A DNA stretch of 64,000 bases from Acipenser ruthenus (taxonomy: Eukaryota), in NCBI RefSeq assembly GCF_902713425.1, contig NC_081214.1, positions 11,008,641-11,072,640 of the forward strand, given 5' to 3'. A program made the position numbers. Shown here in pieces: positions 27,301-30,300 of the stretch (within the stretch, counting starts at the first letter, position 1; the number at the start of each line of letters is the position of its first letter).

Positions 27301-30300
27301 GAAATGAAAGAACTGCACAGAAGCTGTACTGCGCAGGAAGCATTGCTATTAGAGCTTCGGGTACAATTTGAAATGAGCAAAAAATGCACCCAGGGAGGCA
27401 CTGGTGAACCTAAAGCGAAGAAAGGTATACTTGCCAACTTAAGAGCCACTGTTGGCTCGCCTGCTAAACTATCCAAGAAAACTGTTGCAAGCACATCAAG
27501 CTCTACCAGAAAGAGGGGCCTGTTCAAGAAAATGGTGGTAATATGTGTATGGATTTTGTTTTTAATGTTTGTCTTATCAGAAATGCAATAAATATTTAAG
27601 TTTTTGTTTGGTTTCTATTTCCACAAGATAGGTCACCTTGGAAAATTCCCCTGCCCCCCCCCCCTCAAAAAACTTGCAATGAATCTCCTCCTACTGGCTG
27701 AGTTATTAATATCAGTATTGCCGCTTGACTGAATTTGATTTCGGTGTGAATAGTAAGATCATCTATCGGTTTTGCATAATAAATATTTAGATGTCTTATT
27801 TAGCATCTTGTAATCAAATAAAATATGAAATGACAACACAAGTCTATTGGAAGCCATACTAGTACAGTATTTAATGTTAGATTTTGAAATGTCACTAACA
27901 GGGTGAGATTTGTACTGGCTGTCTGATGCATGCATGATCCTGCAGAAGGAGCTCGGGAGCCCTGAAGGGTCTGCCTGTCAATCATGGCAGTGACATGGAG
28001 AGGTTGGGTGAGGGCTCGCTTGCTCGCTCTCTCTCAGTGGTCGGGAGGTGGGCCTTCAGGAGTGCTCGACCTATAAAACTAATGCTCTGCTATTCCTCAG
28101 GTCTGCCCCATTAGGAAGCATAATGGTGGGAGCTCTGGTCGGAAACTGCGGTCCAGACCCTAATAAAACCCCAGTGTCTGGAGCGAGGAGAGACAGACAG
28201 GCAAGCCAGGCAGAGGAAGACAGCCGTGCATAGAAGACCAGACAGTCTTAACACTAGCACCGCCACAACCACTTTTTGAACGGCTTTTGCAATTCAAATT
28301 TGCATTTCTCCGCGTATGTGAATATCTCGTTGTGGCAAAGTGCCCCGCCCCTGTGTGCATTTGTGTGTTCTATGTTGTATGTATGCGTGCGTATGTTAAT
28401 GTTGGTGTATAGATTGGTACACGGGATATAAACGGGTCTGTGTTTCACGTGTATTTAAAAAGTGTAGATTTGTATTTAGGCACGAGGAGAGCACAAATCA
28501 CTTCACGTGCTGGTTAAATGTAATATGTGAGCACGGGGTTGCACAGAATTAATTCACGTGCTGGGATTCAAGTGAATAATTAATTAGTAATTGAATCCCA
28601 GCACAATAGTATATATAGACGCACATTTCTTGCACTCAGGGTTGGGTGTTCGGAAGAGGAGAACGGGTGAGAGAGAGAGGAGAAACTAGAAAGTAAAATC
28701 GTAAACGTAAAGTGTTTGTTCTCACCGTGTCTGTTTGTCTGTCCGTGCACCGTTTGTTTAGTGTTAGTCGTTTTGTATGTCTGTTTATTTTGGCGCAAGT
28801 GCCGTGTCCTGTTTTGTGCTGTTTTCAACCCTTTTATTTGTTAATAAACGCTGAGTGCAGCCATTGCACTCAGCTCATCACAACCACTGTCTGTGTTTGG
28901 ATTCCTTTCTGGTCTGACGCAACCCACTCTGGCCGTCTTTGTGACACGTGGTGTCTTCGTGGGATAGCCGCGCCTCCAAGCGTCAGACCAGGAGGGGTCT
29001 GGATTAAAAAAAAAAATATATATATATAAAGGATTACAAATATTGTTTTTGGGGGAAAAAAAAGAAGAAAAAAAGTAAATGGCAGAAGACGCCATCAAAC
29101 TGCGGGGCTGGTTCCTGGAGAATGCTGGGCTGGAGGCCCAGTCTCTGCCCATAGTCGTCCGGGCCCTGTGGATGATGGACAGTGAGAGATGGGAGGCCTA
29201 TCAGGAGGAACACACCCCAAACACCTTGGAGGAAGGTGTGGAGTTTGTCCTCAGCTACCTGGAGGCAACCATAAATGGAACAGCAGCCCAGGTAGCAGGA
29301 CCACCAGCAGAGGAGTACCTGCTGTCCCCATCTCCACCAGCAGAGGGTGAGTATCTGCTGTCCCCATCTCCACCAGCAGAGGGTGAGTACCTGCTGTCCC
29401 CATCTCCACCAGCAGAGGGTGAATGCCTGCTGGTTTTGCCTCCACAGCCCAAATGGGAGGAGCCTGAGCATCCACAGCCCAAATGGGAGGAGCCCAAGCG
29501 GAAGGAGCCCGAATGTCCTACGCCTGAGTGGGAGGAGCCCGAATGTCCTACGCCTGAGTGGGAGGAGCCCGAACGTCCTACGCCTAAGTGGGAGGAGCCC
29601 GAACGTCCTACCCCTGAGTGGGAGGAGCCCGAACGTCCTACGCCTGAGTGGGAGGAGCCCGAACGTCCTACGCCTGAGTGGGAGGAGCCCGAACGTCCTA
29701 CGCCTGAGTGGGGGGAGCCCGAACGTCCACAGCCCAACAGGGAGGAGTCGGGGCGTCCACAGCCCAACAGGGAGGAGTCGGGGCGTCCACAGCCCAACAG
29801 GGAGGAGTCGGGGCGTCCACAGCCCAACAGGGAGGAGTCGGGGCGTCCACAGCCCAACAGGGAGGAGTCGGGGCATCCACAGCCCAAAAGGGAGGAGTCG
29901 GTGCGTCCACAGCCCAAAGGGAGGCAAGTCGGGGCTTCCACAGCCCTGGGACCCAAGCCACCAGCAGAGAGAAAATGCCTGCTGGTTCAGCCCCAAGAGC
30001 CGGAAGGGGAGGGGTTACAGGCTCAACCCCCTGAAAATTTTTGGGGGGGAGAAGGGCAGGATGCTGGTGTTCCCCAGCAGCCTCTCGCTATGCTGCTGAA
30101 GGCAGCACGGTGCGCACATGCCCAGCCGCCACAGCAGAGGGAGCCAGCACCGCCAGGAGCAGAGGAGCTGGAGCTGCCTCTGCCTCCACCACCACCAGGA
30201 GCAGAGGAGCTGGAGCTGCCTCTGCCTCCACCACCACCAGGAGCAGAGGAGCTGGAGCTGCCTCTGCCTCCACCACCGCCAGGAGCAGAGGTGCTGGAGC

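What the first reader, a model, noticed from the sequence alone, without database searches (positions are those of the whole stretch)
28480..28620. Conserved stem-loop immediately upstream of the LTR TATA box, maintained by compensatory change between LTR subfamilies, plus triplicated CACGTG E-boxes
In the LTRs at 28331, 30866, 15201(-) and 16257 the U3 region reads CACGTG-CTGGGATTCAAGTGAATAATTAATTAGTAATTGAATCCCAGCAC-(A)-TATATATAG. The stem is perfect with 2x11 bp.

In the divergent 3' LTR of copy 2 (19405-20033) the same position reads CACGTG-CAGTTGTACCGAGATTCCAATTGAATGATTGACTAGCAATCGAGTCTCGGTACAACTGCA-TAAAAG. The stem sequence is completely different, but it is again a perfect inverted repeat followed by a TATA-like box. 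The structure is conserved while the sequence is not.

Three CACGTG palindromes (bHLH/USF/MYC-type E-boxes) lie within ~150 bp upstream.
Basis: seen in the sequence. Interest (0 to 1): 0.5.

Follow-up and report, generated by a model that had tools for sequence, protein, structure and literature searches.

The report
Covarying stem-loop in sturgeon LTR promoter
A short sturgeon retrovirus-like element carries, between an E-box and its TATA box, a small folded stem-loop that is the best-conserved part of its LTR; its pairing survives sequence change between subfamilies, so it is a real element signal of unknown function rather than a chance palindrome.

Summary
The inverted repeat is 14 bp, not 11. 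It overlaps the GTG half of the proximal E-box and occurs in all 28 copies of this LTR region that I recovered: 5 in the window and 23 from Acipenser sinensis and A. ruthenus loci. It was never found outside an LTR.

The "different" hairpin at 19618-19679 is not a foreign insertion. It is a subfamily state (type B, 6 copies; plus one type C intermediate) that is homologous base for base to type A.

The "loop" contains a second 5-bp helix. Across both helices 95.6% of cells pair, and 5 pairs changed on both sides. A sixth such pair lies in the B/C stem extension. In register-shifted controls at most 43% of cells pair and at most 1 pair changes on both sides.

The 47-nt hairpin is the most conserved window of the whole LTR: 94.5% against 74% mean pairwise identity. 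The three TCACGTG E-boxes are real and derive from a diverged tandem enhancer repeat.

Best reading: a selected plus-strand stem-loop, most likely RNA in the U3 part of the 3' UTR. A promoter DNA element is the main rival. Template switching may supply the paired mutations. Function is untested.

The parts
28331..31481 (+). Copy 1 of the element. It is 3,151 bp, with LTRs at 28331-28946 and 30866-31481 and the 5-bp target-site duplication CTCGT at 28326-28330 and 31482-31486. It has one 584-aa Pro/Glu-rich repetitive ORF (29079-30833) and no pol gene.
   Evidence: The LTRs are 99.7% identical. Ends and duplication were read. The ORF has no Pfam match. Its homologues are found only in Acipenser.
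28446..28451 (+). Distal E-box E1, in the form TCACGTG.
   Evidence: It decays to CATGTG in some older copies.
28504..28509 (+). Middle E-box E2. The 12-mer TTCACGTGCTGG is shared with E3.
   Evidence: Unit 1 against unit 2 scores 30 versus 9.2 +/- 3.8 in shuffles (0 of 2000 reach it). Unit 2 against unit 3 gives p = 0.0055.
28555..28560 (+). Proximal E-box E3. Its GTG half forms the first 3 bp of the stem.
   Evidence: It is CACGTG in most of the 27 copies aligned, and CATGTG or CACCTG in the rest.
28558..28571 (+). Left arm of the basal helix, GTGCTGGGATTCAA.
28572..28577 (+). Conserved unpaired 5' bulge. With the last two bases of the left arm it reads AAGTGAAT. Types B and C read (C)AATTGAAT.
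   Evidence: Only 2 of 13 unpaired positions differ between types A and B, against 11 of 34 paired positions.
28578..28592 (+). Apical helix and loop: AATTA (28578-28582), ATTAG (28583-28587), TAATT (28588-28592). Type B reads GATTG-ACTAG-CAATC. The 3' strand overlaps the 14-bp basal right arm by 2 nt, so the two foldings (12+5 bp or 14 bp) are alternatives.
   Evidence: RNAalifold predicted this helix by itself. Two of its 5 pairs changed on both sides. It is in the minimum-energy fold of type B RNA.
28591..28604 (+). Right arm of the basal helix, TTGAATCCCAGCAC.
28610..28618 (+). TATA box TATATATAG. Other copies read TATAAATAG, and types B and C read C/TATAAAAG.
   Evidence: Its use as the promoter is inferred, not shown.
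31093..31139 (+). The same stem-loop in the 3' LTR of copy 1. The A>C change at 31106 breaks the innermost pair.
16478..16524 (+). The same stem-loop (type A) in the 5' LTR of copy 2.
15583..15629 (-). The same stem-loop (type A) in a solo LTR on the minus strand (15201-15851, target-site duplication CCCCC).
19618..19679 (+). Type B stem-loop in the 3' LTR of copy 2. The basal helix is TGCAGTTGTACCGAGATTC / GAGTCTCGGTACAACTGCA (19618-19636 / 19661-19679). The bulge is CAATTGAAT (19637-19645). The apical helix is GATTG-ACTAG-CAATC (19646-19660). The TATA-like CATAAAAG at 19678-19685 overlaps the 3' end.
   Evidence: Identical or near-identical type B copies occur in L003 (2 copies) and L007 (3 copies).

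Best explanation
**What it is (shown).** This is a genuine, family-wide cis-element of a sturgeon (Acipenser) retrovirus-like LTR element that has no pol gene of its own. It is a two-helix stem-loop that exactly fills the gap between the promoter-proximal E-box and the TATA box. Its parts are:
- a basal helix of 12-14 bp in type A and 19-20 bp in types B and C;
- a conserved 8-9-nt bulge on the 5' side;
- a 5-bp apical helix;
- a 5-nt loop A(T/C)TAG.

The active lineages kept base pairing in the helices, by changes on both sides. They kept sequence in the unpaired parts. The whole block is the best-conserved part of the LTR.

**How it most likely works (inferred).** This pattern is the signature of a folded single strand read by a protein. 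The strand is the plus strand, because every imperfection that was passed on through retrotransposition is a G.T (G.U) wobble on that strand. The form is most likely RNA. U3 is transcribed only from the 3' LTR, so the stem-loop would sit in the 3' UTR of every element transcript, shortly before R. There it would act after transcription, on RNA stability, export, or recognition by the helper element's proteins.

**Context.** The three TCACGTG E-boxes are remnants of a roughly 50-57-bp tandem enhancer repeat. Together with the TATA box they form the promoter around the stem-loop. Template switching, by reverse transcriptase or at replication, probably supplied the paired mutations and the extension or loss of the outer stem. 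Selection kept the paired outcomes.
For: **Presence**
- The element is in all 28 LTR copies that cover this region: the window, A. sinensis and A. ruthenus.
- A covariance model run over 276 kb found it only inside LTRs.

**Conservation**
- It is the most conserved 47-nt window of the LTR among 14 full type A copies: 94.5% against 74 +/- 12% mean pairwise identity.
- All 6 windows that score as high or higher overlap it.

**Covariation**
- With the 14-pair stem, 92.5% of cells pair and 3 pairs changed on both sides. Register-shifted controls pair at 44% or less.
- With the apical helix that RNAalifold found independently, 15 pairs give 95.6% paired and 5 pairs changed on both sides. Shifted controls give at most 43% and at most 1 such pair. 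No shuffle out of 500 reaches the observed covariation score.
- A sixth pair changed on both sides (T-A in B, C-G in C) lies in the stem extension of B and C.
- Placing the 13 A-to-B substitutions at random keeps 16 or more of 17 Watson-Crick pairs with p = 0.0004.

**Intermediates**
- Type C shares position 3 with A and positions 5 and 7 with B.
- The A' clade carries T.G at position 5, between T-A in A and C-G in B and C. It is monophyletic and deep in both trees.

**Plus-strand signal**
- Unpaired positions differ less than paired ones between A and B: 2 of 13 against 11 of 34.
- The plus-strand RNA folds are more stable than the minus-strand folds: -36.6 against -31.8 for B, and -24.1 against -22.9 for A.
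- Stem transitions keep a plus-strand wobble 8 times and a minus-strand wobble 2 times.

**Family context**
- The same LTR has other retrovirus-type RNA structures that also covary: a hairpin next to the poly(A) signal and a U5-leader repeat that brackets the primer-binding site.
Against: - No transcript data are available. The transcription start site, and therefore the U3 assignment, is inferred from the TATA box alone.
- The independent compensatory events number only about 4-6, across three hairpin types.
- The wobble asymmetry is not significant (p = 0.11).
- The excess of A>G changes expected from editing of double-stranded RNA is not significant (4 against 1; Fisher p = 0.17).
- The element sits flush between an E-box and a TATA box. 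That placement is more naturally explained by a role in the promoter DNA.
- Template switching can produce paired changes without selection for structure (PMC8794818). It is also known to expand inverted repeats inside promoter transcription-factor sites (PMC13100816).
- One active element (L011) carried a G.A mismatch in the stem in both of its LTRs.
- No Rfam family matches.
Confidence: 0.45

Rival explanations
1. It is a promoter DNA element. The inverted repeat and its AT-rich centre would form a platform for transcription factors between the E-box and the TATA box. It could be read as double-stranded half-sites by dimeric factors. Alternatively it could extrude as a cruciform under the negative supercoiling behind RNA polymerase, which would bring the E-box-bound bHLH-ZIP factor next to TBP. 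Under this reading the arms stay complementary because template switching homogenises them.
For: - The stem starts inside the E-box and ends 0-5 nt from the TATA box in types A, B and C, even though stem length differs.
- The centre is about 84% A+T, flanked by arms richer in G+C.
- The E-box, hairpin and TATA box together form one conservation peak.
- The hairpin type and the TATA variant travel together as one module when LTRs recombine.
- Expansion of inverted repeats by template switching inside promoter transcription-factor sites is documented in yeast (PMC13100816).
Against: - Double-stranded half-sites do not need complementarity. Yet arm sequence changed at 3 of 12 positions in both arms while the element stayed active.
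- The two helices have centres offset by 4 nt, which gives an 8-9-nt one-sided bulge. This is not a simple dyad for a dimer.
- Spacers of 19-24 nt are long for cruciform extrusion (own knowledge).
- The TAATTA-type motifs of type A are lost in type B, while pairing is kept.
Confidence: 0.3
2. It is a stem-loop in the 5' leader (R region), like TAR. The invariant TATAAA at 28427-28432 would be the real promoter. Transcription would then start near LTR position 130, and the hairpin would lie in R at both ends of the RNA.
For: - The upstream block GGTACACGGGATATAA(A/G)CGGG is invariant in the window copies and lies in a second conservation peak of about 87%.
- All the RNA-type covariation evidence listed above applies equally to this reading.
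Against: - All three E-boxes would then lie downstream of the start site.
- The downstream TATA box varies only among functional TATA forms (TATATATA, TATAAATA, TATAAAAG). It is followed at about +25-30 by a conserved CACTCA/G.
- R would be about 415 nt long.
Confidence: 0.1
3. It is a neutral palindrome. It would be a by-product of template switching, kept perfect by repeated arm-to-arm copying during reverse transcription, with no function for the element.
For: - Template switching creates and repairs hairpins (PMC8794818).
- The right arm has no counterpart in the paralogous enhancer unit 2, so it may have arisen as a reverse-complement copy of the left arm.
- The extra 8 nt in the left arm of B and C is complementary to a right flank that already exists in type A copies (AACTGTA in L011).
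Against: - Neutrality cannot explain why this is the most conserved window of the LTR, including its unpaired bases.
- It cannot explain why two separate helices both stay paired across about 25% divergence.
- After insertion, copies do decay: private mismatches of all kinds appear. So nothing keeps the repeat perfect outside the replicating lineage.
Confidence: 0.08
4. It is a precursor of a small RNA embedded in the LTR, as in the Pol III microRNAs of foamy viruses and BLV.
For: - The type B hairpin is 62 nt with about 25 paired bases.
- Foamy viruses encode microRNAs in U3 (PMC3993851, PMC7693620).
- A TTTT run lies 18-25 nt after the hairpin in about 17 of 27 copies.
Against: - The dominant type A stem is only 14 bp.
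- There are no convincing A or B boxes.
- The T run is TTTC in many copies, including the young copy 1.
- No Rfam microRNA family matches.
Confidence: 0.04
5. It is a foreign insertion. The hairpin, or at least its type B form, would be a MITE or other small palindromic transposon that landed in the LTR.
For: None was found beyond its palindromic shape.
Against: - The loop and right arm of B align without gaps to A.
- Type C is an intermediate.
- Type B occurs in 6 LTRs of 3 loci.
- There are no copies outside LTRs in 276 kb.
- No target-site duplication flanks it.
Confidence: 0.02

Closest known systems
Structured cis-acting RNA elements in the U3 / 3' UTR part of retroviral RNA: the HTLV/BLV Rex-responsive element, the HERV-K Rec-responsive element, the MMTV Rem-responsive element and the MPMV constitutive transport element (own knowledge).
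   Same: It lies in or next to U3 of the 3' LTR, on the plus strand. Helices are maintained while sequence drifts. Unpaired bases are conserved, as expected for protein contact points.
   Different: Those elements are 150-500 nt long with several branches, and they work with a known viral or cellular export factor. This one is 47-62 nt with two helices. It has no sequence or Rfam match. The element encodes no known regulator, and its function is untested.
E-box (USF / bHLH-ZIP) sites in retroviral LTRs, for example the HIV-1 upstream E-box and the three E-box-overlapped enhancers of BLV U3 (own knowledge). Also tandem enhancer repeats in U3, as in MLV.
   Same: There are three CACGTG sites upstream of a TATA box in U3. 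They arose by tandem duplication of an enhancer unit.
   Different: Factor binding has not been shown. Here the proximal E-box is physically part of a stem.
Hairpins created and maintained by template-switch mutation (PMC8794818), and expansion of inverted repeats at promoters (PMC13100816).
   Same: The stems are perfect. Changes appear on both sides at once. The stem differs in length by a block complementary to the opposite flank. It sits in a promoter next to transcription-factor sites.
   Different: Those studies concern replication of cellular DNA. Here the replicating lineage passes through reverse transcriptase. The element is also under clear purifying selection, so mutation bias alone does not explain it.
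MicroRNA hairpins encoded in U3 of foamy viruses and in BLV (PMC3993851, PMC7693620).
   Same: It is a hairpin inside a retroviral LTR. Type B has roughly the size of a pre-miRNA.
   Different: Type A is too short. Pol III promoter and terminator features are not conserved. No small-RNA data exist.

Membership tests
LTR retrotransposon / endogenous retrovirus LTR | TG...CA termini and a target-site duplication | tested here: met
   The LTR runs TGTGGCAA...TTTGTGACA. The 5-bp duplications are CTCGT for copy 1 and CCCCC for the solo LTR.
LTR retrotransposon / endogenous retrovirus LTR | Primer-binding site after the 5' LTR and a polypurine tract before the 3' LTR | tested here: met
   TGGTGTCTTCGTGGGATAG starts 2 nt after the LTR, at 28949. 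AAGGGGGGG lies just before 30866. The cognate tRNA was not identified.
LTR retrotransposon / endogenous retrovirus LTR | Encodes its own gag-pol (autonomous element) | tested here: not met
   The internal 1.9 kb holds one repetitive 584-aa ORF with no Pfam domain. None of the 12 related loci has a pol gene between family LTRs. The element is therefore non-autonomous.
Structured RNA supported by covariation | Base pairs kept through changes on both sides, above register-shifted and shuffled controls | tested here: met
   5 of 15 pairs qualify and 95.6% of cells pair. Shifted controls give at most 1 such pair and at most 43% paired. No shuffle out of 500 reaches the covariation score. Caveats: there are few independent events, and the alignment was fitted to the structure.
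Structured RNA supported by covariation | Membership of a described RNA family | tested here: not met
   A scan of 28300-31500 against Rfam 15 at E <= 1 gave nothing over the hairpin.
Structured RNA supported by covariation | The region is transcribed and folded in vivo | not testable with these tools
   No sturgeon transcript or probing data could be reached.
E-box (CACGTG) enhancer cluster | Several canonical CACGTG sites, enriched and conserved | tested here: met
   There are 3 per LTR. TCACGTG occurs 22 times against 4.1 expected. The sites are conserved apart from CpG>TpG decay.
E-box (CACGTG) enhancer cluster | Bound by and responsive to a bHLH(-ZIP) factor | not testable with these tools
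   This needs ChIP, EMSA or a reporter assay.
MITE or other foreign insertion | Copies outside the host element, own target-site duplication, no homology to the uninterrupted LTR | tested here: not met
   The covariance model finds only LTR-embedded copies in 276 kb. Type B aligns to type A without gaps through the loop and right arm.
Template-switch (quasi-palindrome) mutation product | A multi-base change in one arm that is the reverse complement of the other arm or its flank | tested here: inconclusive
   The extra GTGCAGTT in the left arm of B is the complement of the right flank AACTGCA. The same difference can equally be a deletion in type A between the GTGC direct repeats seen in type C. 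Without an outgroup, the direction of change is unresolved.
Cruciform-forming inverted repeat | Arms of at least about 10 bp, a short spacer and an AT-rich centre | tested here: inconclusive
   The arms are 14-19 bp and the centre is AT-rich, so those two are met. The spacer is 19-24 nt, which is long. Extrusion itself cannot be tested here.
Retroviral Pol III microRNA hairpin | A stem of about 22 bp or more, with a flanking Pol III promoter and a T-run terminator | tested here: not met
   The type A stem is 14 bp. TTTT is present in only about 17 of 27 copies and lies 18-25 nt away from the hairpin.

The most novel reading that the evidence does not exclude
The stem-loop is a structural switch built into a transposon promoter. 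Under transcription-driven negative supercoiling, the AT-centred inverted repeat would extrude. That would remove 47-62 bp of helical path and dock the E-box-bound bHLH-ZIP factor directly against the TATA box and TBP. Selection would then act on pairing rather than on sequence. A related untested variant: the folded element is the tag by which this pol-less element is recognised by the proteins of an unidentified helper retrovirus.
Probability: 0.12. Interest if true: 0.6.

Novelty: new member of a known kind. Interest (0 to 1): 0.35.

Why it matters
Structured cis-elements in retroviral and retrotransposon LTRs are well known, so the kind is not new. This is nonetheless an undescribed, clean example in an uncharacterised sturgeon-specific element.

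It is small and has three natural allelic forms (A, B, C) plus a wobble intermediate (A'). Hundreds of dated genomic "fossils" are probably available in sturgeon genomes.

That makes it a convenient natural system for a live question. Are compensatory changes in hairpins selected one base at a time, or delivered in a single step by template switching (PMC8794818)? And does a repeat placed between an activator site and a TATA box act as DNA or as RNA?

For genome annotation, it shows that the "divergent" LTR is a recombining subfamily module and not an insertion.

Tried and rejected
**Searches for more copies**
- DNA pattern scans for more copies in viral contigs and JGI metagenomes returned 0 hits. 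Sturgeon DNA could be reached only through the protein route, and all 12 look-ups are now used.

**Family and repeat searches**
- Rfam found nothing at the hairpin.
- TRF did not detect the enhancer repeat. A pairwise shuffle test was needed instead.

**Alignment problems**
- A fuzzy-regex extraction timed out.
- MAFFT put the B-specific gap in a register that hides arm homology. It also misplaced the extra C of type B. The 14-pair count therefore undercounts pairing in B.

**Tests for RNA against DNA**
- The strand test by wobble type gave 8 against 2, p = 0.11, which is not significant.
- The test for A>G excess from ADAR-type editing gave 4 against 1 in the hairpin versus 34 against 45 in the rest of the LTR. 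Fisher p = 0.17, so it is inconclusive.

**Evolutionary direction**
- The direction of the A-to-B/C length change could not be resolved. Trees from the two LTR halves disagree because the LTRs recombine.

**Search for an autonomous partner**
- Long ORFs near family LTRs belong to unrelated gypsy-like, LINE or Tc1 elements.
- A tyrosine-recombinase ORF in L002 looked relevant, because recombinases act on inverted repeats. It proved to be a nested, unrelated element.

**Readings considered by eye and not adopted**
- Transcription-factor motifs: homeodomain TAATTA, PBX-HOX TGATTNAT, STAT-like TTC-N4-GAA, and similarity to the tRNA B box. These are short AT-rich matches with many chances to occur.
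- The Pol III microRNA reading.

- Two literature queries failed on term length.
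Full report
**1. What is in the window**

The finding lies in the 5' LTR (28331-28946) of a 3,151-bp LTR element at 28331-31481.
- Its LTRs run TGTGG...GTGACA and are 99.7% identical.
- It is flanked by a 5-bp target-site duplication, CTCGT.
- A primer-binding site (TGGTG...) starts 2 nt after the LTR, and a G-rich polypurine tract precedes the 3' LTR.
- Inside there is only one 584-aa Pro/Glu-rich ORF made of 30-nt and 42-nt tandem repeats. 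It has no Pfam domain and there is no pol gene.

Further copies of the LTR lie at these positions:
- 30866-31481, the 3' LTR of the same element.
- 16257-16880 and 19405-20033, the two LTRs of "copy 2", which are only 76% identical to each other.
- 15201-15851 on the minus strand, a solo LTR with the duplication CCCCC.
- 1-299, a fragment that lacks U3.

The N-terminal domain of the ORF has 30 homologues. All are from Acipenser sinensis or A. ruthenus. The host is therefore a sturgeon, and the element is a lineage-specific, non-autonomous, retrovirus-like family.

**2. Checking the observation**

The 44-mer gives 3 exact matches and 1 match with a single mismatch, against none in shuffles.

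The stem is longer than reported. GTGCTGGGATTCAA (28558-28571) pairs perfectly with TTGAATCCCAGCAC (28591-28604). That is 14 bp, and the first three pairs use the GTG half of the proximal E-box.

The variant in the 3' LTR of copy 2 has 19-nt arms at 19618-19636 and 19661-19679, with a single T.G.

Both forms fold far better than shuffled sequence: z is -6 to -8 as DNA or as RNA, and no shuffle out of 200 does as well.

The three CACGTG sites are all TCACGTG, at 28446, 28504 and 28555. The motif is five-fold enriched in the window, and almost all of that excess comes from these LTRs.

E1/E2 and E2/E3 sit in diverged tandem units of about 50-57 bp. Unit 1 against unit 2 scores 30 versus 9.2 +/- 3.8, and unit 2 against unit 3 gives p = 0.0055. 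TRF does not see the repeat.

**3. Related copies**

Through the ORF homologues I fetched 12 loci of about 20 kb each. From these I extracted every LTR copy covering this part of U3. With the 5 window copies that gives 28.
- All 28 contain the inverted repeat.
- 21 are type A, the window's main form.
- 6 are type B, the form at 19618-19679. The others are in L003 (2 copies) and L007 (3 copies).
- 1 is a third form, type C (L002:14161-14207).

A covariance model built from the copies found exactly these sites and nothing outside an LTR in 276 kb. This removes the MITE or foreign-insertion alternative.

**4. The two forms are homologous, and that is why the covariation counts**

The loop and the right arm of B align to A without a gap.

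With the arms in the register dictated by that right-arm alignment, the inner 12-bp stem reads:
- Type A: GTGCTGGGATTC / GAATCCCAGCAC
- Type C: GTGCC(g)AGATTC / GAGTCTCGGCAC
- Type B: GTACCGAGATTC / GAGTCTCGGTAC

The differences are:
- Position 3: G-C in A and C, A-T in B.
- Position 5: T-A in A, C-G in B and C.
- Position 7: G-C in A, A-T in B and C.

All three are changes on both sides.

B and C carry 8-9 extra left-arm bases that pair with the right flank, and that extension itself shows one more paired change (T-A in B, C-G in C).

RNAalifold, given only the alignment, also predicted a second helix inside the "loop": AATTA-ATTAG-TAATT in A against GATTG-ACTAG-CAATC in B. This helix has two more paired changes and a G.U intermediate in one A copy.

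The combined two-helix structure scores as follows:
- 95.6% of cells pair.
- 5 of 15 pairs changed on both sides.
- Register-shifted controls give at most 43% paired and at most 1 such pair.
- No shuffle out of 500 reaches the covariation score.

Redistributing the 13 A-to-B substitutions at random keeps 16 or more of 17 Watson-Crick pairs with p = 0.0004.

The centres of the two helices are offset by 4 nt. The fold therefore has an 8-9-nt one-sided bulge and is not one long dyad.

**5. Conservation**

Among 14 full-length type A LTRs that are on average 74% identical, the 47-nt hairpin window is 94.5% identical. Every window that scores as high or higher overlaps it. The active lineages therefore preserved both stems and unpaired bases.

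Between A and B, unpaired positions changed less than paired ones: 2 of 13 against 11 of 34.

A clade of copies (A': L001, L006, L012, and by its hairpin L004) carries T.G at position 5. That is exactly the intermediate between T-A and C-G. The clade is monophyletic and deep in trees from both LTR halves.

The same trees place type B LTRs differently in the two halves. The hairpin-plus-TATA module is therefore shuffled between LTR backgrounds by recombination.

**6. Which strand, and DNA or RNA?**

Imperfections that were passed on, meaning shared by both LTRs of an element or by several elements, are these:
- T.G at position 10 in type B.
- T.G at position 5 in the A' clade.
- G.T in the three L007 copies.
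- One G.A in L011.

Private changes, which arose after insertion, are 2 plus-strand wobbles, 2 minus-strand wobbles and 3 mismatches. Overall the count is 8 plus-strand wobbles to 2 minus-strand wobbles, p = 0.11.

Plus-strand RNA folds are more stable than minus-strand folds.

These data lean towards a plus-strand fold but do not prove it. An ADAR-type A>G excess was not significant.

The family clearly uses RNA structure elsewhere in the LTR. A hairpin right after AATAAA covaries, and a U5-leader repeat brackets the primer-binding site.

**7. Interpretation**

I commit to a selected two-helix stem-loop that acts as a folded plus strand. Most likely it is RNA in the U3 part of the 3' UTR of element transcripts. 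The promoter formed by the E-box repeats and the TATA box surrounds it.

The main rival is a promoter DNA element. The stem is flush with the E-box and the TATA box in all three types, and the module recombines as a unit.

A variant places the hairpin in R, if the invariant upstream TATAAA (28427-28432) is the real promoter.

Template switching (PMC8794818, PMC13100816) is the likely source of the paired mutations, and of the stem-length difference. But the length difference could equally be a slippage deletion in type A between the GTGC repeats visible in type C.

Mutation bias alone does not explain the conservation peak.

**8. Comparison and novelty**

No Rfam family matches.

The closest known things are:
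- retroviral U3 / 3' UTR RNA elements;
- E-box enhancers in LTRs;
- hairpins maintained by template switching;
- microRNA hairpins in foamy virus and BLV LTRs (PMC3993851, PMC7693620).

The features defining the last group are not met by the dominant type A.

This is a new member of a known kind. It is interesting mainly as a compact natural system with three allelic forms and an intermediate.

Noticed in passing
window 28843-28874 (and the same LTR position in all copies): A second hairpin lies directly after the AATAAA signal: GCTGAGTGCA-gccat-TGCACTCAGC. Other copies read GCTGAGCGAA/TTCGCTCAGC, GCTGAGCGCG/CGTGCTCAGC or ACTGAG.../...CTCAGT. It therefore also covaries, and it resembles a retroviral poly(A) hairpin.
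   Followed up: partly
window 28904-28920 and 28980-28996: A 17-nt inverted repeat, 88% complementary, joins U5 to the leader and brackets the primer-binding site at 28949. This resembles a retrovirus-type U5-leader stem.
   Followed up: no
window 16257-20033: Copy 2 is chimeric. It has a type A 5' LTR and a type B 3' LTR that are only 76% identical, and its flanks read AGGAG and GGGAG. Reverse transcription makes identical LTRs, so this must be recombination or gene conversion after integration.
   Followed up: partly
window 31106: One of the only two differences between the LTRs of copy 1 is an A>C change in the stem. It breaks the innermost pair and creates a fourth, palindromic TCACGTGA E-box.
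   Followed up: yes
window 28420-28440: An invariant block ACACGGGATATAAACGGG holds a second canonical TATAAA (28427-28432), 183 bp upstream of the presumed TATA box. It could be an alternative promoter, which would put the hairpin in R.
   Followed up: partly
L002 11136-12509: An intact-looking tyrosine-recombinase ORF carries the motifs LRCSE, HSFRIGAAT and GRWTSSAVESYIR. It matches Pfam PF00589 at E 3.8e-5 and aligns to the Cre C-terminus. It is nested in a family element and is unrelated to the family, so it is Crypton- or DIRS-like.
   Followed up: partly
window 29079-30833: The element's only ORF (584 aa) is intact in the young copy. It consists of a roughly 95-aa N-terminal domain followed by 10-aa and 14-aa Pro/Glu-rich tandem repeats. 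It has homologues only in Acipenser and no Pfam match, and its function is unknown.
   Followed up: partly
window 973-4579 (-), 34287-35306 (-), 41141-41818, 55280-55951, 20098-20664: Other transposable elements surround the family. These include a gypsy-like gag(SCAN)-protease-RT-integrase, a Tc1/Sleeping-Beauty-type transposase, and LINE reverse-transcriptase fragments. Another LTR pair lies at about 56.5 kb and 62.9 kb.
   Followed up: no
L007 9242-13974: This locus has a tandem LTR-internal-LTR-internal-LTR arrangement. All three LTRs carry the type B hairpin on an A-like upstream U3. It is a recombinant subfamily.
   Followed up: partly
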